From a bacterium (GTDB taxonomy: Bacteria > Patescibacteriota > Minisyncoccia > Minisyncoccales > JAZDGI01): a stretch of 64,000 nucleotides of DNA. The first letter of the stretch is position 1. Every line of letters starts with the position of its first letter. The translations under genes were made by a program, and so were the position numbers. Location of the stretch: the NCBI GenBank assembly GCA_043807085.1, contig JAZDGI010000005.1, forward strand, positions 5,816 to 69,815, in the 5' to 3' direction. Positions 12,187 to 63,665 of the stretch are shown piece after piece. Under the pieces are notes generated by a model that was not told the origin of the DNA, made no database searches, and saw only the letters and a program-made list of their open reading frames with translations.

Positions 12187-12639
12187 ATGTCAATAAAACA
12201 CATAGAAATTTTGACCCTGAACTATCGGCAAACGCAAAGCGCCGGGAAAGTTTTGGCTGAAGAAATTTTGGAAACGTCCGGTCAAAAATCATTTGTCTTG
12301 GGACTGGAGGGAGAGCTAGGAGGAGGGAAGACCACTTTTTTGCAGGGGTTTGCCCAAGGGCTCGGCATTAAAGAAAAAATTACCAGTCCGACTTTCGTGA
12401 TTATGAAAAGATTCAAGATCAAAAATTTAAAATTTAAGAATTTTTATCATTTTGACTGCTACCGCATCCAAAAAGCCGAAGAGATTTCGGTAACGGGGCT
12501 TAAAGAGATAATTTCTGATCCGCAAAACATTGTTGCTATTGAGTGGTCGGAGAGAATAAAAAAGATTATGCCTAAAAACGCTTTGCGGCTAAGTTTTGTT
12601 TATATGGGCAAAGACAAGAGAAAAATCGTGATAGAATAA
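12187..12639 (+). CDS. tsaE: tRNA t6A37 biosynthesis ATPase TsaE
   Basis: 150 aa. GELGGGKTTFLQG P-loop, SPTFVIM and YHFDCYR motifs. Confidence 0.9.
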   Translation: MSIKHIEILTLNYRQTQSAGKVLAEEILETSGQKSFVLGLEGELGGGKTTFLQGFAQGLGIKEKITSPTFVIMKRFKIKNLKFKNFYHFDCYRIQKAEEISVTGLKEIISDPQNIVAIEWSERIKKIMPKNALRLSFVYMGKDKRKIVIE

Positions 12640-19544: not shown

Positions 19545-19773
19545 TAATAACCAGAAAGCCAAAGTTTTTTACGCTGTTTCTCTGGGCTTGGAGCTTGGTT
19601 TTTTGATCGCTGTTCCTTTGGTCGTTTTTTTGGCGGCTGGAGTTTTTTTAGACAGGATCATTGGCGTTGCTCCCGTTTTTTTGATAACATTTGTCATTGC
19701 CAGTCTAATTGGGATATTTTTTGAAGTTAGGTATTTGATTTTGCCGTTTTTGGAAAAAAGGTCATCAAAGTAA
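19537..19773 (+). CDS. AtpZ/AtpI-like small membrane protein
   Basis: 78 aa, two TM helices (LGLELGFLIAVPLVVFLAAGVFLD...), located inside the atp operon between atpB and atpE. Confidence 0.6.
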   Translation: MDNNNQKAKVFYAVSLGLELGFLIAVPLVVFLAAGVFLDRIIGVAPVFLITFVIASLIGIFFEVRYLILPFLEKRSSK

Positions 19774-19776
19774 TAA

Positions 19777-20031
<255 letters not shown>

Positions 20032-26895: not shown

Positions 26896-26967
26896 GTCCC
26901 CATAGCTTAACGGATAAAGCGCGGCCCTCCGAAGGCCGAAATCGAGGTTCGATTCCCCGTGGGGACA
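26896..26967 (+). tRNA. tRNA-Arg (anticodon CCG)
   Basis: 72-nt cloverleaf. Acceptor GTCCCCA/TGGGGAC, D arm GCTT/AAGC, anticodon arm CGGCC-CTCCGAA-GGCCG, T loop TTCGATT. There is one A-C mismatch in the T stem, and CCA is not encoded. Confidence 0.85.
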
Positions 26968-37250: not shown

Positions 37251-38978
37251 ATGAAGAACCAAGATTTGGCGAAAATATTTTATGGAATAGCGGATTATTT
37301 GGAGATGGATAGGGTGGCTTTTAAGCCCTTTGCCTGGCGAAAAGTTGCCGTTGTTTTGGAGGCAATGAAAGAAGACGTCGGAGAGGTTTACAAAAAAGGA
37401 GGAAGGAAGGCTTTGGAGGAAATTCCGGGGGTTGGGAAAAGCATTGCTGAAAACATAGAAGAATATCTGAAAACAGGCAAGGTCAAATATTATGAAAGAT
37501 TTAAAAAAAGCCTGCCGATAAATTTACCGGAGATGATTGCGGTTGAGGGGTTAGGCCCTAAAAAAGCCAAGGTTCTTTATGAAAGATTGGGAGTGAAAGA
37601 TTTAAAAACATTGGAAAAGGCGGCTAGGGCCCATAAAATCGCTTCTTTATTCGGATTTGGAGAGAAAACTGAAAAGAATATTTTAGAGGGGATTAACTTT
37701 TTGAAAAGAAGCAAGGGGAGATTTTTGCTGGGAGAAATTCTGCCCAAAGCCGGCGAGGTTTTGGAAAAGCTAAGAAGCTTGAAAGAATCGGAAAAGGTGG
37801 ATATGGCCGGTTCTTTGCGGAGAAAGAAAGAAACTATTGGCGATGTTGATTTTCTGGCTATTTCCAGGAAGCCCAAGCCGATAATGGATTTTTTTGTTTC
37901 TTTGCCCGGAGTTGTCAGAGTCTGGGGCAAGGGTTTGACAAAAACGTCGGTAAGAACGGAAGAAGGCTTTGATATGGATATCAGGGTAGTGCCCAAAAGA
38001 AGTTATGGTTCAGCTCTTCAGTATTTTACAGGGTCTGTGGATCATAATATTGCCACGAGAAAAATTGCCATGGACAAGGGACTGAAGCTTTCTGAATACG
38101 GGCTTTTTAAGGGCTCAAAAATGATTGCCGGCGCTAGCGAAGAGGAGATTTATAAAGCTTTGGGCATGGAATGGATTGAGCCGGAAATAAGGGAAAATCA
38201 GGGTGAAATCGCCGTCGCCCAAAACAATCAACTCCCGAAGCTGATTAATTATAAAGATATTAGGGGTGATTTGCACTGCCATTCCGATTGGGCCGGCGGA
38301 AAAAATTCTATTGAAGATCTGTCAGGAGCCGCTCAAAAAATAGGCTATGAATATCTGGGCATAGCCGACCATACAAAGTTTTTGAGGATTGAACACGGGC
38401 TGGATGAAAGAAAATTAGAATTGAGAAATAAGGAAATTGACAAAATAAACGAAAAATTTAAGGTTCAAGGTTCAAGGTTCAAGATATTGAAGGGTTGCGA
38501 GGCGAATATTTTGAACGACGGCTCAATTGATATTAAGGATGATGCCTTGGCGAAGTTAGATTTTGTTATCGCCGGTATTCACTCCTCTTTCAAAATGGCG
38601 AAAGAAAGAATAACAGAAAGAATAATAAGGGCGATGAGAAATCCCAATGTAGATATTATTTCTCATCCGACAGGTCGAATCTTGAAAAAAAGGGATGAAT
38701 ATCAGATTGATTTCAGCAAAATTTTAAGAATCGCCAAGGAAACCGAGACTATTCTGGAGATAAATTCTTATCCTGAAAGATTAGATTTAAACGACCAGAA
38801 TATCAGGCGAGCCAAAGTCGCGGGAGTAAAAATGATTATTAATACCGACGCTCACCGGAAGGATCAGCTGGTACTTATGGAATTGGGCGTTTCCCAGGCC
38901 CGTCGCGGCTGGGCCGAGAAGGAAAACATAATAAATTGCCGGCCATTAGATAAACTATTAAAATTTTTTAAGAAATAA
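37251..38978 (+). CDS. Family X DNA polymerase with C-terminal PHP domain (PolX)
   Basis: The start is set to ATG 37251 (MKNQDLAKIFYGIADYLEM). HhH motifs, catalytic GDVDFL and PHP motifs (GDLHCHSDW, ADHT, NTDAH). The track's TTG at 37212 lies inside repeat copy 2. Confidence 0.92.
   Translation: MKNQDLAKIFYGIADYLEMDRVAFKPFAWRKVAVVLEAMKEDVGEVYKKGGRKALEEIPGVGKSIAENIEEYLKTGKVKYYERFKKSLPINLPEMIAVEGLGPKKAKVLYERLGVKDLKTLEKAARAHKIASLFGFGEKTEKNILEGINFLKRSKGRFLLGEILPKAGEVLEKLRSLKESEKVDMAGSLRRKKETIGDVDFLAISRKPKPIMDFFVSLPGVVRVWGKGLTKTSVRTEEGFDMDIRVVPKRSYGSALQYFTGSVDHNIATRKIAMDKGLKLSEYGLFKGSKMIAGASEEEIYKALGMEWIEPEIRENQGEIAVAQNNQLPKLINYKDIRGDLHCHSDWAGGKNSIEDLSGAAQKIGYEYLGIADHTKFLRIEHGLDERKLELRNKEIDKINEKFKVQGSRFKILKGCEANILNDGSIDIKDDALAKLDFVIAGIHSSFKMAKERITERIIRAMRNPNVDIISHPTGRILKKRDEYQIDFSKILRIAKETETILEINSYPERLDLNDQNIRRAKVAGVKMIINTDAHRKDQLVLMELGVSQARRGWAEKENIINCRPLDKLLKFFKK
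38460..38483 (+). repeat. Heptanucleotide tandem repeat (AAGGTTC x3 + AAG) in frame in PolX
   Basis: Three perfect 7-nt units (21 nt = 7 codons) encode KVQGSRF(K) between PHP motifs. Confidence 0.95.
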
Positions 38979-40775: not shown

Positions 40776-40801
40776 AAATAATTACTAAATAATTATTGCT
40801 G

Positions 40802-41145
40802 TGGAGGTGGTGGGAATTGGACCCACGTCCGAAAAGTTTTTTCAAAATAATTCTACAGGCTTAGTCCGGTTTTAGTAAGTATAGAATTTAAACCGGGCGA
40901 AAGTTCTATGCTTTGAATCCAAATGTTTTTCAATAGTCTTTCTGGATTCAGGAGAGAACTATTTATCTCGCTGATATGACACCTAATTTTGCCTAGCGAG
41001 AATCAGCAAATTAGATGCCGCTTAAGCGTAAACTAAAGCGGGTTTTTGAAATAAGTTGGCACTTATTATTTTTGCCGTTTTTTAAAAGTTCCGGCAACTT
41101 TGCCTGCTTATTTTAATCGGCTCTTCGTCAAGTCCGATCACCCCC
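40802..41145 (-). ncRNA. ssrA: tmRNA (SsrA)
   Basis: 5' GGGGGUGAUCGGACUUGACG... and a 3' tRNA-like end GGACGUGGGUCCAAUUCCCACCACCUCCA. The acceptor stem GGGGGUG/CACCUCC has the G3:U pair. The tag reading frame at 41022..41060 is GCC AAC ... GCT TAA = ANLFQKPALVYA-stop, preceded by AUAAGU (compare E. coli AUAGUC-GCA AAC). Confidence 0.9.
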
Positions 41146-44594: not shown

Positions 44595-47500
44595 ATGGAT
44601 GTAAACTTTCCGGAGCTTGAGGAGAAAATTTTAAAATTCTGGCGGGAAAACCTGATTTTTAAAAAATCAATTTCACGGCGCAAAAAGAGCCGCAATTTTG
44701 TGTTTTACGAGGGCCCGCCCACGGCCAACGGAAAGCCTGGAATCCATCATGTTTTGACCAGGGTTTTTAAAGACATTATCTGCCGCTATAAAACTATGCG
44801 GGGTTTTAGAGTTGAGAGAAAGGCCGGCTGGGACACTCACGGCTTGCCGGTAGAGCTGGAAGTTGAAAAAAAATTAGGGTTGAAAAATAAAAAAGACATT
44901 GAAAAATACGGCATAGCTAAATTTAATAAAAATTGCCAAGAATCGGTTTGGCAATATAAAAAAGAATGGGAGAAATTAACCGACAGGATTGGTTTTTGGC
45001 TTGACGAGGACAATCCGTACGTCACCTATCAAACGGAATACATTGAAACCGTTTGGCATATTTTGAAGCGGATTTACCAAAAAGGCCTGCTTTATCATGA
45101 TTACAAGGTGGTTCCTTATTGCCCAAGGTGTGGAACTACCTTATCCAGCCACGAGGTTGCCCAAGGATACGAAAAGATCAAAGATCCTTCTATTTTCGTC
45201 AAATTCAGGATTAAAAATCCGGAATTCAAAGATTCTTATTTGCTGATTTGGACCACTACTCCCTGGACGTTGCCAGGCAACGTGGCGATTGCCGTTAATC
45301 CCGAGATGGCTTATGCCAAAATCAAATCGCCAGATATAGAAGAGTATTTAATTTTAGCTAAAGACAAAATAGCCGAACGGCAAATAAAAGGAAAAATAGT
45401 CCAAGAATTTAAGGGAAAGGATTTAGCCGGATTGGCTTACGAGCCAGCGTACGCTGACGAGGATTTTTCTAAAAGCGCCTACAGAGTCATTTTGGCTGAT
45501 TTTGTTTCTTTGGAAAGCGGCACTGGTTTAGTTCATATTGCCCCGGGTTTTGGATTGGAAGATATGGAAGCTGTAAAAAATCAAAACACAGAATCAAAAA
45601 GGCAGGGTCTGCCCGAACTCCCAATTTTATTGCCAGTGAACGAAGAAGGGAAATTCGCGCTTGACGCCAAGAAGTGGGCCGGAATGTTTGTCAAAGAAGC
45701 GGACCCTTTGATTATTAACGATCTGAAAGAAAGGGGTTTTTTGTTCGCTGAAGAATTATACGAACACGATTACCCTTTTTGCTGGCGCTGTCATTCTCCG
45801 CTGCTTTATTACGCCAGAAAATCTTGGTTTATTCAGACGACCAAAATTAAGGACGATCTTATTGGGAATAATCAAAAAATAAATTGGGTTCCGGTTCATT
45901 TGAAAGAAGGAAGATTCGGCGAGTGGTTAAGAGATTTGAAAGACTGGGCTTTGACCAGAGAAAGATATTGGGGAACTCCCCTGCCTATTTGGCAATGCAA
46001 GACCTGCGGAAAGCAGGAAATTATCGGCTCTAGAAAAGAACTATTCGGCCGAGCTTCTTCGGGCAGCAGATATTTTATTTTCCGCCACGGGTATTCTTTA
46101 AGGCAGATTAAAAAGGTATCTTCCTGCTGGCCGGAAAAAGTACCATTTCCCTTGACGAAAAAAGGAGAGAGGGAGGTTGAGGTCGCGGCGAAAAAACTAA
46201 AAAATAAAAAAATTGACTTAATTTTTTCCTCCGACCTGTTGAGAGCGAAGCAAACCGCCCGAATTATCGCCAAAGAAACCGGAGCCAAAATAATTATCGC
46301 CAAGCAATTGAGGGATTATAACGTGGGAGTTTTTAACTATAAAAATCCGAAATTATCTTGGGAATATTTGGAGAAAAGCGAAAATCCGATTTTAACGAAA
46401 TTGCCCAAGGGAGAGAGTCTGGCAAATATCAGAAAAAGAATGTACGAATTTTTAAAAAGAGTAAATGAAAAATACCCGGCAAAAAACATTGTTATCGTGT
46501 CTCACGAGCTCCCTTTGACGATTTTAGAGCAGACCTTAAGCGGCTTGGAATTAGAAGAAATATTGAAACAAAGGGCGCAGCGGAAAATAAATCCAATCGC
46601 TACGGCCGAATGGCGGGAGATAAAGTTTAAAACCCTTCCCTTTAACGGCAATTACGAAATAGATCTCCACCGCCCTTATATTGACGAAATGAAATTTCAG
46701 TGTCTGGGTTGTCAGGGTGAGATGGAAAGGGTTTCTGAAGTTATAGATTGCTGGTTTGATTCGGGCTCTATGCCCTTTGCCCAGGCGCGCTGGCCGTTCA
46801 GCGGAAACTTGAAGCCTGAACCCTCTGGCGCGAAACCTCCGAAACTGTTCCCGGCAGATTATATTGCCGAAGGGGTTGATCAGACGAGAGGCTGGTTTTA
46901 CACCCTATTGGCGATCTCCACGCTTTTAGGATTTGGTTCTCCCTACAAGAATGTCATTTCCTTGGGCCATATTTTAGATGAAAAGGGAGAAAAAATGTCA
47001 AAATCGAAAGGTAATATTGTTGATCCGTGGTATATTGCCGGCCGGTACGGGGCAGACGCCGCCCGTTGGTATTTTTATACCGTCAACCAGCCCGGCGAAG
47101 CGAAATTGTTTTCAGAGAAAGATATTGACCAGGCATTAAAAAGATTTATTTTGATATTTTGGAATTGTTTTACCTTCTGGGAAACATACAAAAAAAATTC
47201 AAAAGTCAAAAGCCAAAAGACAAAACCAAAGAATGTTTTAGATAGGTGGATTATTTCCAGGCTGAACCGGCTGGTTTTAGAAGCGACCGAATCTTTGGAC
47301 AGATTTGATGTGACAGGCGCGGCTAGAATTATTGAAAATTTTGTAATCAACGATTTGTCTTTGTGGTATATTAGAAGATCCAGAAAGCGGTTCAAAGAGA
47401 TTGAGAATTTTTTAGCCCTTATTCTTTTGGCTGTATGCAAACTTGGCGCGCCCTTCTTTCCTTTTTTGAGCGAAGAAATATACCAAAAAATTTCCGGTTG

Positions 47501-48065
47501 CCGATTTTCAGCTTCCAAATCAGTGCATTTGGAAAAGTGGCCGATAGCGGATAAAAAATTAATTGATAAAAAACTGGAGGGAAGCATGAACGAGGTTCGC
47601 GAGATAGTCAATTTAGGATTGAGAGAAAGGGCGAAGTCGGGCATTAAGGTCAGGCAGCCTCTCGGTAAATTACAAATTACAAATTGCAAATTACAAAAAG
47701 AGGAAGAACTTCTGGGGCTAATAAGAGAAGAGGTTAATGTTAAGGAAATTACTTTCGGCGAGTCTTTAAGGCTAGATACGGAAATAACCGAAGAACTTGA
47801 AAGGGAAGGAATTGTTCGGGAAGTTGTTCGTCAGATTCAGGGAATGAGAAAAGAGGCAAAATTGCGGCCGAAAGATAAAATTTCAGTGAGCTATTTAGCC
47901 GAAGGCGAATTGGGCGAAATTTTGGAAAAAAGTAAAAGTTTGATGCTGGAGGAGGCGAATATAAGCGATTTAGTCCGACGAAGAGAGATTTCGGGGGAGT
48001 TTCTCGCTCAAAAAGAAATAAAGGTCGGCGATGAAAAATTATGGCTGGGAATTAAGAAAATTTAA
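44595..48065 (+). CDS. ileS: Isoleucine--tRNA ligase with an inserted histidine-phosphatase (PGAM-like) domain
   Basis: 1156 aa. HIGH-type motif (GKPGIHHV), CP1 editing domain, KMSKS. Residues ~487-685 (nt ~46053..46655) form an extra domain with RHG, LTKKGE, SSDLLRAKQTA and SHE motifs. Confidence 0.95.
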   Translation: MDVNFPELEEKILKFWRENLIFKKSISRRKKSRNFVFYEGPPTANGKPGIHHVLTRVFKDIICRYKTMRGFRVERKAGWDTHGLPVELEVEKKLGLKNKKDIEKYGIAKFNKNCQESVWQYKKEWEKLTDRIGFWLDEDNPYVTYQTEYIETVWHILKRIYQKGLLYHDYKVVPYCPRCGTTLSSHEVAQGYEKIKDPSIFVKFRIKNPEFKDSYLLIWTTTPWTLPGNVAIAVNPEMAYAKIKSPDIEEYLILAKDKIAERQIKGKIVQEFKGKDLAGLAYEPAYADEDFSKSAYRVILADFVSLESGTGLVHIAPGFGLEDMEAVKNQNTESKRQGLPELPILLPVNEEGKFALDAKKWAGMFVKEADPLIINDLKERGFLFAEELYEHDYPFCWRCHSPLLYYARKSWFIQTTKIKDDLIGNNQKINWVPVHLKEGRFGEWLRDLKDWALTRERYWGTPLPIWQCKTCGKQEIIGSRKELFGRASSGSRYFIFRHGYSLRQIKKVSSCWPEKVPFPLTKKGEREVEVAAKKLKNKKIDLIFSSDLLRAKQTARIIAKETGAKIIIAKQLRDYNVGVFNYKNPKLSWEYLEKSENPILTKLPKGESLANIRKRMYEFLKRVNEKYPAKNIVIVSHELPLTILEQTLSGLELEEILKQRAQRKINPIATAEWREIKFKTLPFNGNYEIDLHRPYIDEMKFQCLGCQGEMERVSEVIDCWFDSGSMPFAQARWPFSGNLKPEPSGAKPPKLFPADYIAEGVDQTRGWFYTLLAISTLLGFGSPYKNVISLGHILDEKGEKMSKSKGNIVDPWYIAGRYGADAARWYFYTVNQPGEAKLFSEKDIDQALKRFILIFWNCFTFWETYKKNSKVKSQKTKPKNVLDRWIISRLNRLVLEATESLDRFDVTGAARIIENFVINDLSLWYIRRSRKRFKEIENFLALILLAVCKLGAPFFPFLSEEIYQKISGCRFSASKSVHLEKWPIADKKLIDKKLEGSMNEVREIVNLGLRERAKSGIKVRQPLGKLQITNCKLQKEEELLGLIREEVNVKEITFGESLRLDTEITEELEREGIVREVVRQIQGMRKEAKLRPKDKISVSYLAEGELGEILEKSKSLMLEEANISDLVRRREISGEFLAQKEIKVGDEKLWLGIKKI
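47199..47226 (+). repeat. Heptanucleotide-periodic repeat in ileS (TCAAAAG TCAAAAG CCAAAAG ACAAAAC)
   Basis: Four 7-nt units read through as SKVKSQKTKP. Confidence 0.8.
47667..47694 (+). repeat. Heptanucleotide tandem repeat in ileS (AAATTAC x2, AAATTGC, AAATTAC)
   Basis: Four 7-nt units with one substitution encode KLQITNCKLQ. Confidence 0.95.
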
Positions 48066-55374: not shown

Positions 55375-56826
55375 ATGTCAACCAAGACAACCAAGAAAAA
55401 AACATTTTATATTACCACCAGCATTCCCTATGTTAACGCGCCGCCGCACATAGGTTTTGCCCAGGAACTGATCCAGGCGGATGTTTTGGCCCGCTATCAC
55501 CGCGGCTTGAGCGAAGACGTTTTCTTTCTGACCGGTACCGACGAGAACGGCTTAAAAAACGCGCTGGCGGCTGAAAAAGCAGGGAAGACTCCCCAAGAAT
55601 TTGTTGATGAAATATCAGAAAAATTTAGGCTTTTGACAAAAAGTTTGAACCTATCAAACGACGATTTTATCAGAACTAGCGACAAAAAGAGGCATTGGCC
55701 AGCCGCTCAAAAAGTTTGGTCTCTGCTAAAAGAGAGCGGGGATATTTACAAAAAGAAATACAGGGGCCTTTATTGCGTCGGCTGTGAAGCTTTTATCAAA
55801 GAAAAAGACCTTGTTAACGGACAATGTCCGGTTCATCTGAAAAAGCCAGAAGTTTTAGGGGAAGAGAATTATTTTTTCCGGCTGTCAAAATACGCAGCTT
55901 TAGTAGAAAAGGAAATCAGAGAAAATAAGATAAAAATCGTCCCGGAATCCAAAAAAAATGAAATTTTGAATTTTATAAGTCAGGGAGTTGAAGATGTCAG
56001 CTGCTCCCGCTCAAAAGAGAAGTTAAAATGGGGAGTGCCGGTTCCAGGCGACCAAAACCAGATAATTTATATCTGGCTGGAGGCGCTTTCAAATTATATT
56101 TCTGCTTTAAATTACGCTTCAAACGGAGACAAATTTAAAAAATTCTGGCCGGCCGATATTCATTGCATGGGAAAAGATATTTTCCGTTTTCACGCCTTGC
56201 TCTGGCCAGCGGTGCTTGTGTCTATTAAATTGCCTTTGCCCAAGACAATTTTTGTACGCGGATTTATGACTTCCGGCGGTCAAAAAATGTCAAAGTCATT
56301 AGGCAATGTTGTTGATCCTTTTGAACTGGTAAAGAAATATGGGACAGACGCTGTTCGCTATTTTCTTTTGCGGGAAATTCCAGCGACAGAGGATGGAGAT
56401 TTTACTATTGAAAAATTTGAACAGAGATATAATAGCGATTTGGCAAGTGGTTTAGGGAATTTAGTAGCCAGAGTAATAACGATGGCTAAAAATCCGAAAT
56501 CCGAAATCCGAAGCACGAAACAAATTCAAAATTTTAAATTCCAGACAACAATAAATAAAACTAAGAAAGATTACGAAAAATCCTTAGAAGAGTTTAGGTT
56601 TAATGAGGCGTTGATTGCGATTTGGGAGTTGATTAGTTTTTGCGACGAATATATTGAAAAAGAAAAGCCGTGGGAGGGAGGAAAAAATGATGTTATTAGC
56701 GGTTTGTTATTCGTCATTAGCCAGCTAGCAGAATTATTAGAGCCATTTTTGCCTGAAACCGCGGAAAAAATAACTAAACAGCTTAAAATCCAAAAAAGCG
56801 AACTATTATTCCCCCGTTTAAAATGA
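55375..56826 (+). CDS. metG: Methionine--tRNA ligase
   Basis: 483 aa. TSIPYVNAPPHIGF (HIGH-type), zinc knuckle CVGCEAF...CPVH, KMSKS. Confidence 0.95.
   Translation: MSTKTTKKKTFYITTSIPYVNAPPHIGFAQELIQADVLARYHRGLSEDVFFLTGTDENGLKNALAAEKAGKTPQEFVDEISEKFRLLTKSLNLSNDDFIRTSDKKRHWPAAQKVWSLLKESGDIYKKKYRGLYCVGCEAFIKEKDLVNGQCPVHLKKPEVLGEENYFFRLSKYAALVEKEIRENKIKIVPESKKNEILNFISQGVEDVSCSRSKEKLKWGVPVPGDQNQIIYIWLEALSNYISALNYASNGDKFKKFWPADIHCMGKDIFRFHALLWPAVLVSIKLPLPKTIFVRGFMTSGGQKMSKSLGNVVDPFELVKKYGTDAVRYFLLREIPATEDGDFTIEKFEQRYNSDLASGLGNLVARVITMAKNPKSEIRSTKQIQNFKFQTTINKTKKDYEKSLEEFRFNEALIAIWELISFCDEYIEKEKPWEGGKNDVISGLLFVISQLAELLEPFLPETAEKITKQLKIQKSELLFPRLK
56490..56517 (+). repeat. Heptanucleotide tandem repeat in metG (AAATCCG x3 + AAGCACG)
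   Basis: Three perfect units and one degenerate unit encode (K)NPKSEIRST. A further 7-nt-periodic tail (AAACAAA TTCAAAA TTTTAAA) follows. Confidence 0.95.
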
Positions 56827-57716: not shown

Positions 57717-60152
57717 ATGGAATCGTATAATCCGCGGAAAATTGAGGCAAAATGGCAGAAAATCTGGGAGAAAAAAGGGTTTTATAAAGCTGAAGATTTT
57801 TCCAAAAAGCCCAATCGGTACATTCTGTTTGAATTCCCTTATCCTTCCGGAGAGGGTCTTCATGTCGGCCACCCCAGAAGCTACGTTGCCTTAGACGCAA
57901 TTGCTCGCAAAAGGAGGATGGAAGGATTTAATGTTTTGTTCCCGATTGGCTGGGACGCTTTTGGTTTGCCGACGGAAAACTATGCCATTAAAACCGGCGT
58001 CCATCCGAAGGTTGCCACCGAGAAAAACATCGCCACTTTCAAAAGACAACTAGAATCTTTGGGTTTGTCTTTTGATTGGTCGAGAGAAATCAATACGACC
58101 GACCCGAAATATTATAAATGGACGCAATGGATTTTTCTGAAACTTTTTGAAAAAGGTTTAGCTTATCAAGCGGAAATACCGGTTAATTGGTGTCCCTCCT
58201 GTAAAATCGGCTTGGCCAACGAAGAAGTGGTGGACGGTCAATGCGAGCGCTGCGGCGCCGAGGTTGGAGAGAAATTATTAAAGCAATGGATGATAAAAAT
58301 CACGAAATACGCCGACAGGTTGATTGACGATTTGAAAAATGTTGATTTCCCCGAGCGGGTTAAAGCCCAGCAAATAAACTGGATAGGTAGGAGCGGTGGG
58401 GTTAACTTGAGAAATAAGATTAAGGATATGGACATTGAGTTTGAGGTCTACGACTCAATTCCTCAGACTTTTTTGGCCCAGACTTTTACCGTTATTGCCC
58501 CCGATCACCCTTTATTGCAAAAGTTGATTGAAGGTACTGAATACGAAAGACCGGCTTTGGAGTTTGCCCGCAAAATTATCAAGAAAAGAACGGAAGAAAA
58601 ATACGAAACCATCAAAGAGCTCGAAGGAATTTTCACGGGGAGATACGTTGAGAATTATATGGGTACTGGCCGAGACTTGCCAATTTGGGTGGCTAGTTAT
58701 GTTCTTTCTGAATACGGGACAGGCATAGTCAATTGTAGTGCTCACGATGAGAGGGATTTCGCTTTCGCTAAAAAATATAAAATTCCTCTCCGCGCTGTTT
58801 TATTGCCCGAAGACAAGGCATTAGCCGAAAAGGTAAAGAATTTAGAAGTCTTTTATCGGGAACCAGACGGGATTCTTCAAGAGCCCTTAGCGTTCAAAGG
58901 GATGAGATGGGCAGAAGCTAAAGAGCCGATAATTGATTATTTGATAAAAAATAATTTAGGCAGTAGGGCCGTCAATTATAAGTTGCGCGACTGGGTTTTT
59001 TCCAGACAGCATTATTGGGGAGAACCAATCCCGATTATCCATTGCGAAAAGTGCGGGATAGCGCCAGTTCCAGAAAAGGATTTGCCGGTGGAGTTGCCTT
59101 ATGTGGAAAAATACCAGCCGACAGGCACGGGCGAGTCGCCTCTGGCCGCGATTGCCGAGTGGGTCAACATCAAATGTCCCAAATGCGGCGGCCACGCAAA
59201 GAGGGAAACAGATACTATGCCTAATTGGGCCGGCTCCAATTGGTACTATTTAAGATATTTGGACCCTAAAAATGATAAAGCATTGGCGGATGCTAAAAAA
59301 ATAAAATACTGGATGCCGGTTGATTGGTATAACGGCGGCATGGAGCATACCACTCTACACCTTTTATACTCCCGTTTTATTTATAAATTCCTTTTTGATA
59401 TTGGCGTGGCACCGCAGCCCGAACCTTACCAGAAAAGAACTTCTCACGGTATGGTTTTGGCCGAGGACGGCAGGAAGATGTCAAAATCTTTTGGCAATGT
59501 CATTAACCCCGATGATATCGTAGAAAAATTCGGAGCGGATACAATGCGTCTTTATGAAATGTTTATGGGGCCATTTGATCAAGCGGTTTCCTGGAGCACA
59601 CGGGGCGTGATAGGCGTTTCAAGATTTTTGGGAAAGACCTGGAATTTAGTTTTGGAATGCCGCGGAAATAAAGAAAGCAGCCAAAAGATTTTAAGGGTTA
59701 TTAGCAAGCTTAATAAAAAAATCAACGACGATTTAGAGGTAATGAAATTCAACACTATAATTTCTTCTTTCATGGAATTTATTAATTTAGGCCAAGAACA
59801 TAAAAATGAGATAGGCAAAGAAATAATTGAAAAATTTTTAATTTTAATTTCGCCTTTTGCTCCCCATATTGCCGAAGAGTTATGGGATCAAACGGGTCAT
59901 AAAAACAGCATCTTTTTAGAAAAATGGCCGAAGTGTGATCCAAGGTTTATTAAAGACGAAATAATGACTCTGATTATCCAGATTAACGGCAAGTTTCGCG
60001 ATAAAATTGAGGTAGGCCTAGAAACCACGAAAGAGGAGGCCGAAAAATTGACTTTGGGGCGAGAAAGGGTTAAACAATGGATATCGGGCAAGGAAATAAA
60101 AAAGATAATTTTTGTCCAAAATAAACTAATTAATATCGTATGTGCGGGATAG
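57717..60152 (+). CDS. leuS: Leucine--tRNA ligase
   Basis: 811 aa. YPSGEGLHVGH (HIGH), CP1 editing domain, KMSKS. Confidence 0.97.
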   Translation: MESYNPRKIEAKWQKIWEKKGFYKAEDFSKKPNRYILFEFPYPSGEGLHVGHPRSYVALDAIARKRRMEGFNVLFPIGWDAFGLPTENYAIKTGVHPKVATEKNIATFKRQLESLGLSFDWSREINTTDPKYYKWTQWIFLKLFEKGLAYQAEIPVNWCPSCKIGLANEEVVDGQCERCGAEVGEKLLKQWMIKITKYADRLIDDLKNVDFPERVKAQQINWIGRSGGVNLRNKIKDMDIEFEVYDSIPQTFLAQTFTVIAPDHPLLQKLIEGTEYERPALEFARKIIKKRTEEKYETIKELEGIFTGRYVENYMGTGRDLPIWVASYVLSEYGTGIVNCSAHDERDFAFAKKYKIPLRAVLLPEDKALAEKVKNLEVFYREPDGILQEPLAFKGMRWAEAKEPIIDYLIKNNLGSRAVNYKLRDWVFSRQHYWGEPIPIIHCEKCGIAPVPEKDLPVELPYVEKYQPTGTGESPLAAIAEWVNIKCPKCGGHAKRETDTMPNWAGSNWYYLRYLDPKNDKALADAKKIKYWMPVDWYNGGMEHTTLHLLYSRFIYKFLFDIGVAPQPEPYQKRTSHGMVLAEDGRKMSKSFGNVINPDDIVEKFGADTMRLYEMFMGPFDQAVSWSTRGVIGVSRFLGKTWNLVLECRGNKESSQKILRVISKLNKKINDDLEVMKFNTIISSFMEFINLGQEHKNEIGKEIIEKFLILISPFAPHIAEELWDQTGHKNSIFLEKWPKCDPRFIKDEIMTLIIQINGKFRDKIEVGLETTKEEAEKLTLGRERVKQWISGKEIKKIIFVQNKLINIVCAG

Positions 60153-61969
60153 TAGGCTATATTGGCAAAAAAAACGCCGTTCCGATTCTAATGGAAGGGC
60201 TAAAAAGAGAAAGCTACCGAGGGTATGATTCCAGCGGCATTGTTGTGTTTGGAAACGGTAAGCCAGTCTGTATAAAGGCGGTTGGGAAACTGGAAAATCT
60301 TGAAGAGAAATTAAGCGATAACAGCCCGCAAGGAACTTTAGGATTGGGCCATGTCCGCTGGGCGACCCATGGCGGCGTAACCGAGGAAAACGCTCATCCG
60401 CATCACGACTGCAAAAATAATATCTGGCTGGTTCACAACGGCATTATTGAGAATTACAAAGAGCTGAAGAAAAAACTGGAAGAAAAAGGGCATAAATTTG
60501 TTTCTCAAACAGATACAGAGGTTATCGTCCATTTAGCTGAAGAATTTTTTAAAGGAAATTTGGAAGAAGCCATCAAAAAAACCACAGCTTTTTTAAGGGG
60601 CACTTATGGAATAGCCGCGATTTCCCGTGATGATCCTGACAAGATTGTTGTCGCCCGATTGAGCAGTCCTCTGGTAATCGGCTGGGGGGATAATGAGTAT
60701 ATGGTAGCCTCTGATCCGGCGGCTGTAATCGGCCATACTAGAACCATAACTTATCTATATGATAACGAAATAGCGACGATTACTTTGGCTGGCGGTCCTA
60801 AAATCTGGACGATAATAAAGGAGCCGATAGAAAAAAGAAAAGAAAATATAGGCTGGACCGTGGAGGAGGCTCAAAAAGGCGGCTATGCCCATTTTATGCT
60901 TAAAGAAATAATGGAAGAGCCCGAGGCAATTGAGAATGCGATGAGAGGCAGATTGGTGCCCGAGGATGGCCAGGTGAGATTGGGCGGGTTAAGTTCTGTT
61001 GGGGTTAAACTAAGAGAGATTGATAAGCTAATTTTAATTGCCTGCGGCACAGCAGCTCACGCCGCTAGAACTGGCGAATACATGCTGGAAGAATACGCTG
61101 GTATTCCGACTGAAGTTGATGTTGGCTCAGAATTCAGGTATCGAAAGCCCGTTTTGGATAAGCAGACGGCTGTTATTTGCATTTCTCAATCAGGCGAAAC
61201 AGCCGACACTTTAGCCGCTTTGCGGGAAATGAAGCAAAAAGGAATTTTGGCCTTGGGAGTTACCAATGTGGTCGGCTCAACTCAAGCCAGAGAAACTGAT
61301 GCCGGAGTTTATACCCGGTCAGGGCCCGAGATGGCTGTCGCATCAACCAAAGCTTTTATTGGCCAATTGACAACTTTGGCTATGTTAACAGTTTATTTAG
61401 GCCGGCAAAGGGATATGGCTTTGGTCATGGGCAAAAGAATTGTTGTCGAGCTTTCGAAGCTGCCTGAATTAGCCCGGCAAGTTTTGAAACAAGCGTCGGA
61501 AATAGAAAAAATTGCAAAAAAATATAAAGACTTCAAAAATTTTTATTTTATTGGCCGAAAGTATAATCATCCGGCAGCGCGCGAAGGCGCTCATAAATTC
61601 AAAGAAGTCACTTATCTTCACGCCGAAGGAGTCAGGGCGGGAGAACTGAAGCATTGCGAGCTGGCCCTAATTGACGAAAGTTTCCCAACTGTGGCCATTT
61701 GCCCTTCGGACTCGGTCTATGAAAAAATGATTTCCAATATCCAGGAAATAAAGGCCCGTAAGGGACCAGTTATCGCTATTGCCACTGAAGGCAACGAAGA
61801 GATTAAAAATTTGGTTGATGACGTCATTTATATCCCCAAAACCTTGGAAATGCTGACGCCGATTCTGTCAGTCATTCCCCTGCATCTCCTCGCTTATTAC
61901 GTGGCCAAAGAATTAGGTTACGACATTGATAAACCCAAAAATTTGGCCAAAAGCGTAACTGTTGAGTAA
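60140..61969 (+). CDS. glmS: Glutamine--fructose-6-phosphate aminotransferase
   Basis: 609 aa. N-terminal MCGIVGY, two SIS domains, C-terminal KSVTVE. Confidence 0.98.
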   Translation: MCGIVGYIGKKNAVPILMEGLKRESYRGYDSSGIVVFGNGKPVCIKAVGKLENLEEKLSDNSPQGTLGLGHVRWATHGGVTEENAHPHHDCKNNIWLVHNGIIENYKELKKKLEEKGHKFVSQTDTEVIVHLAEEFFKGNLEEAIKKTTAFLRGTYGIAAISRDDPDKIVVARLSSPLVIGWGDNEYMVASDPAAVIGHTRTITYLYDNEIATITLAGGPKIWTIIKEPIEKRKENIGWTVEEAQKGGYAHFMLKEIMEEPEAIENAMRGRLVPEDGQVRLGGLSSVGVKLREIDKLILIACGTAAHAARTGEYMLEEYAGIPTEVDVGSEFRYRKPVLDKQTAVICISQSGETADTLAALREMKQKGILALGVTNVVGSTQARETDAGVYTRSGPEMAVASTKAFIGQLTTLAMLTVYLGRQRDMALVMGKRIVVELSKLPELARQVLKQASEIEKIAKKYKDFKNFYFIGRKYNHPAAREGAHKFKEVTYLHAEGVRAGELKHCELALIDESFPTVAICPSDSVYEKMISNIQEIKARKGPVIAIATEGNEEIKNLVDDVIYIPKTLEMLTPILSVIPLHLLAYYVAKELGYDIDKPKNLAKSVTVE

Positions 61970-63665
61970 ATTTATGATTAAAGACAGCAACAAAATATTT
62001 TTGCTTGGAAATGAGGCGATAGTGCGCGGGGCTTTAGCCTCGGGCGTTGATTTTGTGGCAACGTATCCAGGGACGCCTTCTTCGGAAATCGGCAACATCT
62101 TCAATAAAATTGCCAAAGAAAACGGCGTTTATTTTGAATTTTCCACTAACGAAAAGGCGGCTTTGGAGGCTGGAATAGGAGCTTCGTTTTCTGGATTGAA
62201 AACAATGGTGGCGATGAAAAATTTCGGCCTTAACGTTTGCCTGGATTCTTTAATTCCGTTTGTTTATACTGGCAGCAAAGGAGCGACCGTTATCGTCGTG
62301 GCTGACGATCCTTCCTGTCACAGCTCGGCCCAGTCAGAAGAAAATACAAGGCCGATAGCTGATTTGGCCCATATCCCGATTCTAGAGCCGGCCGATCCGC
62401 AGGAATGTTTTGATTTTGTGAAGCTCGGCTTTGAAATTTCCGAAAAGTTTAGCCTTCCGATTTTGATCAGGACGACAACAAGAGTGGCGCATCAAAGCGC
62501 TCAAGTAAGTTTGGGCGAAATCCGAAATCCAAAACCCCTGCCTGGCCGGCAGGCAGGCGAAATCCAAAATGGCAGGTTTGTTAGAGATCAAAAAAGGTTC
62601 GTGACGATGCCGCCGCGGGTTTTGGAGATGAAAAAAGAGCTTTTGGAAAAAATAGAAAAAATCCGGCTTTTCGCTGAGCAAAACACAAAAAACAAGACAC
62701 AAAATACGAAAATAGGTATAATTACCTCCGGAGTTTCTTATTTATATGTCATGGAGGCGTTAAAGGAACTCAATTTAAATTTGCCGGCTTTGAAGCTTGA
62801 TTTTTTCTATCCTTTGCCGGAAAAGAAAATTAAAAGTTTCATTAAGAATTTTAAAAAGGTCTTAATCGTTGAGGAATTGGAGCCGTTTTTGGAAAAAGAA
62901 ATTGAAAGATTGGCAAAAGAAGCTAATTGCCGGCTTGAAATTCACGGCAAAGATTTATTGCCAATCGTCGGCGAGCTCAAACCAGAAATCGTTGAAGTCG
63001 CTATCGCCAAACTCGTCGGCAGAAAATTAGAAATTAGAAATTCGAAATTAGAAATTTCGCAGATTAAGCATCTGCCGAGGTTTTGCCCGGGATGCCCATA
63101 TCATATGGTTTTTGCAGCGATAAAAAAAGCTACTCCTTTGGATGCGATTTTTGGCGGCGACATCGGCTGTTATATGCTGGGAGCGATTCCGCCTCAAGGG
63201 CTTTACGATTACCTTTCTTCAATGGGGTCATCTATCGGCATTGGGCATGGAGTTTCCAAGGCAACCAACCAGAAGGTGATTACTTTTATCGGGGACTCAA
63301 CTTTTTTCCATGCCGGAATTCCCGCTTTATTGAATGCGGTTTTTAATAAATCAAATCCTTTGATTATTATTTTAGATAACGGCACAACGGCCATGACCGG
63401 CCATCAGCCGAATCCGGGCACAGCCGTGAAAAAAGATTCTAAATACGAATTTGAATGGAAAGGCTATGGACAAAACTCACTGGCGTCAGAAAAGCCATTA
63501 TCCATTGAGGAAATTGTTAAGGCCTGCGGCGTTAAAAATTTAAAAGTCGTTAATTCTTTCAATCTAAGCGAAGTGGAAGCTGCCGTGAAAGAATTTTTGC
63601 CGAGAGCAGAAGTTTCAGTAATAATCGCCCGGGGAATCTGCGCCTTGCTCGCCAAAAAATTATGA
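61962..63665 (+). CDS. iorA: Indolepyruvate:ferredoxin oxidoreductase alpha subunit-like (TPP enzyme)
   Basis: 567 aa. LLGNEAIVRGALASGVDFVATYPGTPSSEI, a CPGCPY motif and a TPP-binding GDSTFFHAG. It contains several micro-repeats. Confidence 0.85.
   Translation: MSKFMIKDSNKIFLLGNEAIVRGALASGVDFVATYPGTPSSEIGNIFNKIAKENGVYFEFSTNEKAALEAGIGASFSGLKTMVAMKNFGLNVCLDSLIPFVYTGSKGATVIVVADDPSCHSSAQSEENTRPIADLAHIPILEPADPQECFDFVKLGFEISEKFSLPILIRTTTRVAHQSAQVSLGEIRNPKPLPGRQAGEIQNGRFVRDQKRFVTMPPRVLEMKKELLEKIEKIRLFAEQNTKNKTQNTKIGIITSGVSYLYVMEALKELNLNLPALKLDFFYPLPEKKIKSFIKNFKKVLIVEELEPFLEKEIERLAKEANCRLEIHGKDLLPIVGELKPEIVEVAIAKLVGRKLEIRNSKLEISQIKHLPRFCPGCPYHMVFAAIKKATPLDAIFGGDIGCYMLGAIPPQGLYDYLSSMGSSIGIGHGVSKATNQKVITFIGDSTFFHAGIPALLNAVFNKSNPLIIILDNGTTAMTGHQPNPGTAVKKDSKYEFEWKGYGQNSLASEKPLSIEEIVKACGVKNLKVVNSFNLSEVEAAVKEFLPRAEVSVIIARGICALLAKKL
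62517..62569 (+). repeat. Composite: GAAATCC heptamers plus a GC-rich palindrome flanked by an 11-nt direct repeat, in frame in iorA
   Basis: GAAATCC occurs at 62517, 62524 and 62559. The hairpin is CCTGCCTG-GCCGG-CAGGCAGG at 62537..62557. GAAATCCAAAA occurs at 62524..62534 and again at 62559..62569. The segment encodes EIRNPKPLPGRQAGEIQN. Confidence 0.9.
62679..62713 (+). repeat. Degenerate heptanucleotide-periodic tract in iorA
   Basis: CAAAACA CAAAAAA CAAGACA CAAAATA CGAAAAT encodes (E)QNTKNKTQNTKI. Confidence 0.7.
63024..63051 (+). repeat. Heptanucleotide tandem repeat in iorA (AAATTAG x2, AAATTCG, AAATTAG)
   Basis: Encodes KLEIRNSKLE. The one variant unit (TCG in place of TAG) removes what would otherwise be an in-frame stop codon. 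Confidence 0.95.

What the first reader, a model, noticed from the sequence alone, without database searches (positions are those of the whole stretch)
62679..63051. Two further period-7 tracts in iorA (CAAAACA-type and AAATTAG-type)
62679..62713 (CAAAACA CAAAAAA CAAGACA CAAAATA CGAAAAT) encodes QNTKNKTQNTKI. 63024..63051 (AAATTAG AAATTAG AAATTCG AAATTAG) encodes KLEIRNSKLE. In the second array, the single variant unit is exactly the one whose TAG would fall in frame. This is direct evidence of selection acting on a repeat that arose at the DNA level. One 1.7-kb gene thus carries three heptamer tracts plus a palindromic insert, which makes it a hotspot.
Basis: seen in the sequence. Interest (0 to 1): 0.55.

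Follow-up and report, generated by a model that had tools for sequence, protein, structure and literature searches.

The report
Coding seven-base repeats in bacterial enzyme linkers
Two short stretches of an essential-type metabolic gene are built from a 7-base DNA unit repeated head to tail. They are one example of a habit shared by a whole group of tiny bacteria (Patescibacteria/CPR), whose genomes write such 7-base repeats into the flexible linkers of ordinary proteins.

Summary
Both tracts exist at the stated coordinates.

**Tract 2 (63024-63056)** is a clean (AAATTAG)x4.7 repeat. Its one variant unit (TCG, 63042-63044) is exactly where TAG would be in frame.

**Tract 1 (62679-62713)** is a decayed (CAAAATA)n tract. 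Its period-7 signal is weak but real, and an orthologue supports the reading.

**They are not inserts.** Alignment with 83 orthologous loci and 120 proteins shows that both sit in ancestral inter-domain linkers of unchanged length. The structure model gives these linkers pLDDT below 50.

**The real finding is wider than this gene:**
- In 1.0 Mb of Patescibacteria DNA, period-7 tandem tracts number 60, against 10 or fewer for any other period from 3 to 21.
- Orthologous loci from archaea and other bacteria, with the same GC content, have 1 in 0.36 Mb.
- 93% of the tracts lie inside ORFs, so they are not depleted from coding DNA.
- They give 7-residue-period peptides such as KLEIRNSKLEI and KYKIQNTKYKIQ.
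- iorA is a true hotspot: 20 of 56 tracts in 10% of the DNA.
- Stop-containing units never run perfectly for more than 2.9 copies in ORFs.

**Best reading:** heptanucleotide microsatellites generated at the DNA level and filtered by selection for an open frame and a tolerated linker. Heptamer repeats are known elsewhere, but mostly between genes. This coding, linker-overwriting, lineage-wide form appears undescribed. Why the period is 7 remains unexplained.

The parts
61974..63665 (+). iorA-like gene (fused 2-oxoacid:ferredoxin oxidoreductase alpha/beta-type, 563 aa) that hosts the tracts
   Evidence: ORF. Pfam POR_N aa 19-201 and TPP_enzyme_C aa 396-550. PDB relatives 1yd7, 8ys5 and 6n2n. Orthologues are named IorA.
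63024..63056 (+). Tract 2: (AAATTAG)x4.7, encoding KLEIRNSKLEI. It lies in the linker between the alpha-like part and the Cys-motif/TPP-binding part.
   Evidence: TRF 92% matches. Lag-7 self-match 0.92. Model pLDDT below 50 for aa 351-370. The linker is present in all orthologues. 33/33 nt identical to L001.
63042..63044 (+). The TCG (Ser) codon: the single deviation from the unit, at the only position where TAG would be in frame
   Evidence: Sequence and frame. Same TCG in L001 and L086. General pattern in 17 tracts.
62679..62713 (+). Tract 1: decayed (CAAAATA)n tract encoding QNTKNKTQNTKI, in the linker between domain I and domain II, just before the strand IGIITSG
   Evidence: TRF 74% matches. 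Lag-7 self-match 0.71, P=0.003/0.03. One of 8 lag-7 loci in the window. Its 3' 24 nt match the L004 (AAATACA)x3 tract with 1 mismatch. pLDDT below 50 for aa 238-242.
62516..62534 (+). Third iorA tract: (CGAAATC)x2.7, encoding GEIRNPK. The same unit is used in MetRS at 56490.
   Evidence: Orthologues carry EIRNPKSEIR or IQNPKSKIQ at this site.
62535..62569 (+). GC-rich hairpin insert (arms CCTGCCTG/CAGGCAGG, 62537-62557) followed by a second copy of CGAAATCCAAAA (62558-62569; first copy 62523-62534). It is nested in the heptamer tract and is a true insertion of about 11 aa.
   Evidence: Sequence. Gap in nearly all 83 orthologues. Analogous GC-rich insert splitting an (AAAATCC)n tract at the same site in L086.
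56490..56520 (+). Sister tract (AAATCCG)x3.3 in MetRS, between the catalytic and anticodon-binding domains; encodes KNPKSEIRSTK
47667..47697 (+). Sister tract (AAATTAC)x4.4 in IleRS, just after the Anticodon_1 domain; encodes KLQITNCKLQK
47194..47230 (+). Sister tract (AAAAGTC-type)x4.6 in IleRS, just before the Anticodon_1 domain; encodes KNSKVKSQKTKPK
38460..38483 (+). Sister tract (AAGGTTC)x3.4, perfect, in a PolX/PHP polymerase gene; encodes KVQGSRFK
12422..12443 (+). Sister tract (AAAATTT)x3 in TsaE; encodes KNLKFKNF
19768..19783 (.). Short (AAGTAAT)x2.3 tract outside the long ORFs (between ORFs ending at 19544 and starting at 20035)

Best explanation
The two tracts are heptanucleotide microsatellites that sit inside a coding gene.

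**How they arise and survive**
- In Patescibacteria (CPR), a DNA-level tandem-duplication process with a sharp preference for 7-nt units produces A-rich arrays all over the genome. The simplest candidate is replication slippage.
- Because 7 is not a multiple of 3, the ribosome reads the unit in all three frames. Three units make a 7-residue peptide period (K-L-E-I-R-N-x and similar).
- Such arrays survive in genes only under three conditions:
  - the net length change is a multiple of 21 nt;
  - any unit that would place a stop in frame has been changed by a point mutation (TAG to TCG here);
  - the peptide lies where the protein tolerates a hydrophilic, unstructured stretch.

**Why iorA**
- IorA is a fusion of alpha-like and beta-like modules with several inter-domain linkers, so it collects tracts.
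- The tracts have overwritten ancestral linkers rather than been inserted.
- Tract 2 is an old, well-kept copy. Tract 1 is a copy decaying by point substitutions.
- The tracts most likely have no role beyond serving as linker.

**Shown:**
- period-7 specificity;
- restriction to the lineage;
- location in coding DNA and in linkers;
- stop avoidance;
- 7-aa length steps between orthologues;
- stability among close relatives.

**Inferred:** slippage as the generator, neutrality of the peptides, and the reason for 7.
For: **Period-7 specificity**
- Window: 4 tracts at period 7 and none at any other period from 3 to 21; shuffles give 0.01-0.02.
- 57 CPR loci, 1.006 Mb: 60 tracts at period 7, against 10 or fewer for any other period.
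- 27 non-CPR orthologous loci of the same GC content (0.378), 0.36 Mb: 1 tract.

**DNA-level origin**
- Perfect DNA runs reach 6.3 units (44 nt) in ORFs. One example is (AAATACA)x6.3 at the same iorA site in L002.
- The same unit families occur in both orientations and outside ORFs, e.g. a perfect (AAATTAG)x4.3 in L019.
- Tracts are not depleted from coding DNA: 56 of 60 lie in ORFs, against a 90% coding fraction.

**Selection filter**
- Stop-containing units have at most 2.9 perfect copies in ORFs.
- 15 of 26 deviations lie in would-be in-frame stops (9% of positions). Each is a single-base neighbour of the stop.

**Linker location**
- The model gives pLDDT below 50 at aa 238-242 and 351-370.
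- The other window tracts fall at Pfam domain borders in IleRS and MetRS.

**Overwriting, not insertion**
- The linkers are present, at similar length, in archaeal and other bacterial orthologues that show no 7-aa period.
- In CPR orthologues, site 2 is mostly 14 aa with a 7-aa period. Some have 21 aa, a step of 3 units.

**Hotspot**
- 20 of 56 tracts lie in iorA, which is 9.9% of the DNA (p=2e-7).

**Prior knowledge**
- Heptanucleotide repeats are the most abundant long simple repeats in many bacteria. A polymerase-footprint slippage idea was proposed for this (Mrazek et al. 2007, as summarised in PMC4692102 and PMC4679880).
Against: - No copy-number polymorphism of heptamer tracts was seen among members of nine clusters at 90% identity or more. 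The expected signature of active slippage is therefore missing, although the samples are small.
- Tract 2 is 33/33 nt identical in an orthologue with only 69% nucleotide identity and 46% third-position identity. It is 30/33 identical in a third orthologue, with the same TCG. That is more conservation than a neutral linker should show.
- The same few units recur across sites, genes and genomes. Pair identity is 17 times that of random genomic heptamers. Slippage of arbitrary local sequence does not predict this.
- Nothing here explains why the period is 7.
Confidence: 0.65

Rival explanations
1. The arrays are functional at the nucleic-acid level. They would act as periodic binding sites in mRNA or single-stranded DNA for a protein that reads about 7 nt per subunit (cold-shock/OB-fold, S1-like or HutP-like), or as elements that set local DNA or RNA properties. 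Being coding is tolerated but secondary.
For: - Strict period specificity and restriction to one lineage.
- Tract 2 is conserved at all 11 third-codon positions against a 46% gene-wide third-position identity.
- Unit families are shared far above chance.
- Published proposals exist for TAACTGA repeats as binding sites, and CspB is reported to bind heptamer repeats (PMC4679880).
Against: - There are 30 different units among 60 tracts, with no single motif.
- Tracts sit in the middle of housekeeping ORFs at protein linker positions, not at fixed distances from starts or ends.
- Many orthologues have decayed tracts at the same site with no apparent loss.
- No Rfam family matches there.
Confidence: 0.1
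2. The periodicity is selected at the protein level. The linker would need a K-hydrophobic-x-hydrophobic-x-N-x seven-residue motif (for example a small hairpin). The DNA repeat would be a by-product of strong AT-rich codon bias acting on a repeated peptide.
For: - Almost all CPR orthologues keep a two-fold 7-aa pattern at site 2, even where the DNA repeat is weak (KYSPANGRYRISVP and similar).
- The A-rich strand is the sense strand in most coding tracts.
Against: - Non-CPR orthologues have the same linker with no 7-aa period.
- Very different peptides occupy the same site (KLEIRNS, KYKIQNT, LSVISYE, QLTTYNL).
- Perfect 30-44-nt DNA repeats, and stop-containing units repaired by one base, are not expected from peptide selection.
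- The same units occur outside ORFs.
- The model shows no confident structure there.
Confidence: 0.12
3. The tracts are laid down by a templated or mobile process rather than local slippage. One route is short-patch copying from other heptamer arrays in the genome. Another is footprints of a small element that targets such arrays, like the GC-rich hairpin insert nested in the third tract.
For: - Units are shared between unrelated sites, e.g. AAATCCG in both MetRS and iorA of this genome. KLEI- and KYKIQ-type tracts occur at both site 1 and site 2 of different orthologues.
- The window shows a mosaic. Its site 2 matches a KHLPRFC-type orthologue, while its site 1 matches KRxPQLC-type orthologues.
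- GC-rich inserts split heptamer tracts at the same site in two orthologues.
- Close relatives differ by the presence or absence of 11-22 aa inserts at these loops.
Against: - The two tracts have no terminal inverted repeats, no flanking duplications and no net length gain.
- Shared units are among the commonest heptamers of these AT-rich genomes (ranks 2-40 of 1172), so recurrence may be due to composition plus selection.
Confidence: 0.1
4. Tract 1 only: it is ordinary A-rich low-complexity coding sequence (Lys/Asn/Gln/Thr codons) with an accidental period-7 look.
For: - Only 74% matches and TRF score 33, with a minimum of 30.
- P=0.03 once any lag is allowed, and the boundaries were chosen after seeing the sequence.
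Against: - At the same criterion, lags 4-6, 8 and 10 give no locus in 64 kb, while lag 7 gives 8, including this one.
- The 3' 24 nt equal the end of a clear (AAATACA)x3 tract at the same site in L004, with one mismatch.
- Other orthologues carry fresh heptamer tracts at this site (KLEIKNLKLG, KYKIQNTKIG).
Confidence: 0.1

Closest known systems
Long simple sequence repeats with 7-nt units in prokaryotes (Mrazek, Guo & Shah 2007, as summarised in PMC4692102 and PMC4679880)
   Same: Tandem 7-nt units, over-represented relative to neighbouring periods and longer than chance. A DNA-level origin by slippage was proposed, possibly tied to the length of DNA held by the polymerase.
   Different: Those surveys report that repeats inside genes are mainly multiples of three, and that heptamer excess is mainly intergenic. 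Here 93% of tracts are inside ORFs of core housekeeping genes and are translated in all three frames. CPR genomes were not part of those surveys.
Cyanobacterial STRR heptamers, GGGAATC repeats of Xanthomonas and GGGGA(T/C)T repeats of Nostoc (PMC4692102)
   Same: Lineage-specific families of tandem heptamers. Length and sequence vary between related genomes at the same locus.
   Different: Those are G-rich, intergenic and candidate G-quadruplex formers. The CPR units are A-rich (A 55% of unit bases), coding, and not G4-prone.
TAACTGA direct repeats of marine Beggiatoaceae, cyanobacteria and Bacteroidetes (PMC4679880)
   Same: Heptamer arrays of 2-6 copies. When read on the reverse strand they give LSVISYQ peptides. 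One related CPR locus (L009 7828-7857) has (ATCAGTT)x4.3 in an ORF, and orthologue P0002 has KKLSVISYELSV at iorA site 2.
   Different: The Beggiatoa repeats are one specific unit, mostly a few bases upstream of start codons, and are proposed as regulator binding sites. The CPR tracts use about 30 units and lie within ORFs.
Amino-acid tandem repeats of Borg elements (PMC9879509)
   Same: A-biased DNA tandem repeats that arise at the DNA level, land in ORFs without breaking them, and create disordered protein segments. Homologous proteins carry similar repeats.
   Different: All Borg repeats within ORFs have unit lengths divisible by three. The CPR units are 7 nt, so only triplets of units keep the frame, and stop-containing units need repair. 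The Borg repeats evolve fast, whereas these were stable among close relatives.
Phase-variable contingency loci (tetra-, penta- and heptanucleotide repeats in Haemophilus and Neisseria; PMC2651432 listed)
   Same: Non-triplet repeats inside genes, where gain or loss of one unit would shift the frame.
   Different: Contingency loci have long perfect arrays in surface or restriction genes and vary between strains. Here perfect runs are short (2.7 units in tract 2), the genes are housekeeping, and no frame-shifted or length variants were found.

Membership tests
Heptanucleotide simple sequence repeat (microsatellite-type tandem repeat) | Head-to-tail copies of one 7-nt unit, at least 3 copies | tested here: met
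   Tract 2 has 4.7 copies at 92% matches. Tract 1 has 4.9 copies at 74%, so it is degenerate.
Heptanucleotide simple sequence repeat (microsatellite-type tandem repeat) | Longer than expected by chance for the genome's composition | tested here: met
   4 tracts observed against 0.01-0.02 expected at score 12 or more. Tract 1 passes only the looser empirical scan.
Heptanucleotide simple sequence repeat (microsatellite-type tandem repeat) | Copy-number change between related genomes (signature of slippage) | tested here: inconclusive
   Orthologues differ at site 2 in steps of 7 aa, which is 3 units. However, members of nine clusters at 90% identity or more show no tract-length variation. No close relative of this genome is available; the nearest orthologue is 74% identical.
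Phase-variation contingency locus | Long perfect repeat array prone to frequent slippage | tested here: not met
   The longest perfect run in tract 2 is 2.7 units. Tract 1 has none.
Phase-variation contingency locus | On/off frameshift variants among strains, and a host gene that is dispensable or surface-related | tested here: not met
   The hosts are IorA, IleRS, MetRS, TsaE and PolX. No frame-shifted variants were seen in the clusters.
Intergenic regulatory heptamer repeats (STRR, TAACTGA, GGGAATC types) | Located between genes, often just upstream of start codons | tested here: not met
   56 of 60 CPR tracts, and both tracts of the finding, lie inside long ORFs.
Intergenic regulatory heptamer repeats (STRR, TAACTGA, GGGAATC types) | One defined unit sequence per family | tested here: not met
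   There are 30 canonical units among 60 tracts. The units of the two tracts are AAATTAG and CAAAATA.
Miniature mobile insert (MITE or small dispersed repeat type) | Present or absent relative to orthologues, with inverted-repeat or hairpin ends | tested here: not met
   There is no net insertion at site 1 or site 2, and neither tract contains an inverted repeat. The feature is met only by the neighbouring segment 62535-62569.
Coiled-coil heptad repeat (protein level) | Helical segment with hydrophobic residues at positions a and d over several heptads | tested here: not met
   The model shows coil with pLDDT below 50. Hydrophobic residues are spaced i, i+2 (K-L-E-I), and there are only about 1.5 periods.
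Triplet-compatible amino-acid tandem repeats (Borg-type aaTR) | DNA unit length divisible by three | tested here: not met
   The unit is 7 nt. In Borgs all repeats within ORFs have units divisible by three.

The most novel reading that the evidence does not exclude
Patescibacteria may have a lineage-specific process, or a property of their replication or repair enzymes, that writes A-rich 7-nt arrays into DNA. This process would keep rewriting the inter-domain linkers of core proteins. Some arrays, such as tract 2, are kept identical across deeply diverged genomes because the array itself is read by a nucleic-acid-binding factor. On this reading the tracts would be a new class of functional periodic element embedded in coding sequence, or the visible trace of an unknown mutational machine.
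Probability: 0.12. Interest if true: 0.8.

Novelty: new variant of a known kind. Interest (0 to 1): 0.5.

Why it matters
**A rule that fails here.** Non-triplet repeats are usually purged from genes. In this large bacterial radiation, 7-nt repeats are as common inside genes as outside, and they occupy inter-domain linkers of aminoacyl-tRNA synthetases, a repair polymerase and a redox enzyme.

**What it offers**
- A natural system for studying how DNA-level repeat generation and protein-level selection interact. Stop repair by single base changes and 21-nt length quanta are both visible.
- A possible explanation for the odd 'KIQNSKFKIQN'-type low-complexity peptides seen in CPR proteins.
- A simple sequence signature for this lineage.
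- A sharper form of the old open question of why bacterial polymerases favour 7-nt slippage. A clade with a roughly 20-fold excess is where the cause could be found.

**A practical caution.** These segments are not lineage-specific 'inserts' and should be masked in alignments and phylogenies.

Tried and rejected
- **Translation frame.** My first frame (61975) gave 35 stops. I corrected it to 61974.
- **First period scan.** It used thresholds that scaled with period and was not comparable across periods. I replaced it with a fixed score.
- **Extracting linker DNA.** A regex approach failed for half the loci. I replaced it with tblastn plus MAFFT column mapping.
- **Longest-identical-run count.** The first count broke at shared gap columns and was redone.
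- **Known RNA families.** None lies in or near iorA. The window holds only a tmRNA and a tRNA, both elsewhere.
- **Literature on heptamer repeats in CPR/Patescibacteria.** Three searches found nothing. Mrazek 2007 is not held, so it is cited only through two papers that summarise it.
- **Two papers checked and found not directly relevant.** The FEBS J 2025 paper on frameshifting tandem repeats does not treat 7-nt units. A lookup in PMC3315296 failed on a term-length error and was not repeated.
- **Strain polymorphism of this genome.** It cannot be tested. The only database sequence above 74% identity is the genome's own.
- **Readings considered and rejected.** Phase variation, coiled coil, mobile insert (for these two tracts) and assembly artefact. 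The same kinds of tract occur in independent JGI, ENA and NCBI assemblies.
Full report
**1. What is at the coordinates**

The host gene runs 61974..63665 on the + strand. It encodes a 563-aa protein with POR_N (aa 19-201) and TPP_enzyme_C (aa 396-550) domains. Its nearest solved relatives are 2-oxoacid:ferredoxin oxidoreductase alpha subunits. Its database relatives are annotated IorA in Nealsonbacteria, Paceibacterota and other Patescibacteria. The nearest non-self relative is only 74% identical.

Tract 2 is a clean tandem repeat.
- TRF reports 63024-63056, period 7, 4.7 copies, 92% matches.
- Lag-7 self-match is 0.92, and none of 20,000 composition-preserving shuffles reaches it.
- It encodes KLEIRNSKLEI.
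- Codons start at positions divisible by 3. The TAG triplets of units 1, 2 and 4 (63028, 63035, 63049) are therefore out of frame. The unit-3 triplet (63042-63044) is in frame and reads TCG.

Tract 1 (62679-62713, QNTKNKTQNTKI) is weak.
- It has 74% matches and TRF score 33.
- Lag 7 and lag 14 are nevertheless its highest self-match values, both 0.71. P=0.003 for lag 7, or 0.03 after allowing any lag.
- I scanned every 35-nt window of the 64 kb at a 70% self-match cut-off. Lag 7 gives 8 loci, including this one. Lags 4, 5, 6, 8 and 10 give none; lags 9, 11 and 12 give 1, 1 and 3.

**2. Period 7 is special in this genome and in its whole lineage**

- In the window, at a fixed self-match score of 12 or more, period 7 has four tracts and every other period from 3 to 21 has none. 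Codon-block shuffles and third-order Markov simulations give 0.01-0.02.
- I fetched 80 orthologous loci from one genome per species and four more through exact protein look-ups.
- In 57 Patescibacteria loci (1.006 Mb, window included) there are 60 period-7 tracts, against 10 or fewer for any other period.
- In 27 loci from archaea and other bacteria with identical GC content (0.378; 0.36 Mb) there is one.
- Fifty-six of the 60 lie in stop-to-stop ORFs of 450 nt or more. This matches the 90% of the DNA that such ORFs cover, so the tracts are not depleted from coding sequence.
- The A-rich strand is usually the sense strand. The peptides have a 7-residue period: KSEIRNPKSEIRN, KFKIQNSKFKIQ, KYKIQNTKYKIQ, KLKIENWKLKI, QLSVISYQL.
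- In the window the other hosts are TsaE, a PolX/PHP polymerase, IleRS (two tracts) and MetRS. In IleRS and MetRS the tracts fall at Pfam domain borders.

**3. The tracts are overwritten linkers, not inserts**

Evidence comes from a MAFFT alignment of the iorA products of all 84 loci and from the 120 best protein hits.

- **Site 2** is a 13-21-aa linker. It lies between the helix ending AIAKxx and the K[HR]xP[RQ][FL]C-x-GCPY motif.
  - It is present in every orthologue, including Methanobacterium, Thermoplasmata and Aenigmatarchaeota.
  - The window has the usual CPR length.
  - Non-CPR linkers show no 7-aa period.
  - CPR linkers almost always do (KYKIQNTKYKIQ, KLKIKNWKLKI, KKLSVISYELSV, KYQIPNTKYQIP). 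A minority are exactly 7 aa longer, which is three units.
- **Site 1** is the linker before the strand (I/L)GIITSG. The window's version is slightly shorter than usual. It replaces the widely conserved S-x-[IL]-N-x-[IV] stretch.
- **Structure.** An AlphaFold model built on 44 orthologues (mean pLDDT 76.8) has only five segments below pLDDT 50. One, aa 238-242, lies inside tract 1 (aa 236-247). Another, aa 351-370, covers tract 2 (aa 351-361). Both are coil between a helix and the next domain.
- **Site 0.** Only here is there a true insertion of about 11 aa (62535-62569). It consists of a GC-rich hairpin followed by a second copy of CGAAATCCAAAA, nested in a third heptamer tract.

**4. DNA-level origin, protein-level filter**

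At iorA site 2 different orthologues carry different units.
- L002 has (AAATACA)x6.3, a perfect 44 nt.
- L004 and others have ATTCAAT-type units.
- L006 and L010 have AATTGAA-type units.
- L015 has (AAATTCA)x5.
- The window, L001 and L086 have AAATTAG.

Such perfect DNA runs, the use of the same units in both orientations, and their occurrence outside ORFs point to a DNA-level generator. A perfect (AAATTAG)x4.3 in L019 is one example outside any ORF.

- Among 56 coding tracts, the 17 whose consensus unit contains a stop triplet never exceed 2.9 perfect units.
- Of the 39 stop-free tracts, 20 exceed 3.0 units, with a maximum of 6.3.
- In those 17 tracts, 15 of 26 deviations from consensus fall in the would-be in-frame stop codons, which make up 9% of positions.
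- Each deviation is a one-base neighbour of the stop: TAG to TCG or TTG; TGA to TGG or TGT; TAA to TTA, CAA, AAA, GAA or TCA.

An open frame makes one change per would-be stop obligatory. The informative point is therefore different. Stop-bearing units are present in genes at all, and in nine tracts the repair is the only change.

**5. Tract 1 as a decayed tract**

- The 3' 24 nt of tract 1 (ACAAAATACGAAAATAGGTATAAT) differ by one base from L004.
- In L004 they end a clear (AAATACA)x3 tract encoding KYKIQNTKIG.
- Five of the 120 proteins share QNTKIG.
- Others have fresh KLEIKNLKLG-type tracts at this site.

The 5' part of the window's tract has drifted (CAAAACA CAAAAAA CAAGACA).

**6. Hotspot**

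With the window excluded, 20 of 56 tracts in CPR loci lie in iorA, which is 9.9% of the DNA (binomial p=2e-7). At least five positions in the protein recur as hosts: the N-terminal loop, site 0, site 1, site 2 and a loop near aa 430. I attribute this to the number of permissive linkers in this fused enzyme. No replication or transcription feature specific to the gene was found or tested.

**7. Things the simple slippage picture does not explain**

- **Missing polymorphism.** Members of nine clusters at 90% identity or more show no heptamer copy-number differences. They do differ by the presence or absence of 11-22-aa inserts in the same loops.
- **Excess conservation.**
  - Tract 2 is 33/33 nt identical between the window and L001. 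That gene pair is 69% identical in DNA and 46% at third positions, and its next longest shared run is 20 nt.
  - A third orthologue (L086, 66% aa identity) has 30/33 with the same TCG.
  - Yet closer orthologues (71-74%) have unrelated peptides there.
  - At other sites the same unit is repaired with TTG or TGG.
  - The shared TCG therefore suggests old common ancestry with unusual preservation. Parallel choice of Ser cannot be excluded.
- **Recurring units.** Units recur across sites and genomes: AAATTAG 6, AAAATTC 6, AAAATTG 5, AAAAATT 5 and AAATCCG 4 of 60. Pair identity is 17 times that of random genomic heptamers. AAATCCG serves both MetRS and iorA in this genome.
- **The period itself.** Nothing explains why it is 7. 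The only published idea is that about 7 nt is the stretch held by the polymerase.

**8. Comparison with what is known**

- Heptamer excess among long simple repeats in bacteria, cyanobacterial STRR, Xanthomonas and Nostoc G-rich heptamers, and Beggiatoa TAACTGA repeats are all documented. They are described as mainly intergenic.
- Those sources state that repeats inside genes are mostly multiples of three.
- In Borg elements all repeats within ORFs are divisible by three.
- Three literature searches found nothing on heptamer repeats in CPR/Patescibacteria. The library is not exhaustive.

I therefore file the finding as a new variant of a known kind. It consists of heptanucleotide microsatellites that are predominantly coding, occupy linker sites that hold a heptamer tract in many orthologues of housekeeping proteins, and are characteristic of one radiation.

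**9. Verdict**

Selection against the in-frame stop and the hotspot are supported. 'Inserts' and a recent local origin are not.
- The most likely mechanism is DNA-level 7-nt tandem duplication filtered by frame, stop and linker tolerance (confidence about 0.65).
- The two tracts are in themselves ordinary instances of this process.
- The lineage-wide pattern behind them is the part worth following up.

Noticed in passing
window 62535-62569 and window 15672-15692: GC-rich hairpin or palindromic sequences are inserted in frame in coding genes. In iorA the sequence is CCTGCCTG-GCCGG-CAGGCAGG (aa PLPGRQAG), flanked by the direct repeat CGAAATCCAAAA. In an Fpg/MutM-like ORF (15602-16378) there is a perfect 18-nt palindrome GCCTGCCGGCCGGCAGGC (aa LPAGRQ). 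They share the core CTGCC(T)GGCCGGCAGG, and the pattern is expected 0.13 times by chance. This may be a tiny insert family.
   Followed up: partly
L086 (P0020) iorA site 0; L085 (P0012) iorA site 1: In L086 a 30-nt GC-rich insert splits an (AAAATCC)n tract at the same site as in the window. In L085 a 54-nt GC-rich insert with inverted ends (GAAGCC...GGCTTC) is present, but it is absent from cluster members at 90% identity or more (P0121). Similar presence/absence inserts occur in P0080/P0128 and P0086/P0151.
   Followed up: partly
window 44595-48065: The IleRS gene encodes 1156 aa and carries a histidine-phosphatase (His_Phos_1) domain at aa 494-658, between two parts of the tRNA-synt_1 catalytic domain. 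A DUF5915 tail is also present. This is an unusual domain insertion in an aminoacyl-tRNA synthetase.
   Followed up: no
L009 7828-7857; protein P0002 site 2: (ATCAGTT)x4.3, the reverse complement of the TAACTGA repeat of Beggiatoaceae and cyanobacteria, occurs inside a LeuRS-size ORF of a CPR genome and encodes QLSVISYQL. Orthologue P0002 has KKLSVISYELSV in the iorA linker.
   Followed up: no
window 40799-41145 (-) and 26896-26967 (+): A tmRNA gene and a tRNA gene are the only Rfam matches in the window.
   Followed up: no
window 57717-63665 and loci L001, L002, L004: The gene order leuS - glmS - iorA - iorB(POR) is conserved across divergent Patescibacteria.
   Followed up: no
window 38460-38483: The family-X DNA polymerase (PolX with PHP domain) gene itself carries a perfect (AAGGTTC)x3.4 tract, inside the PHP domain region.
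   Followed up: no
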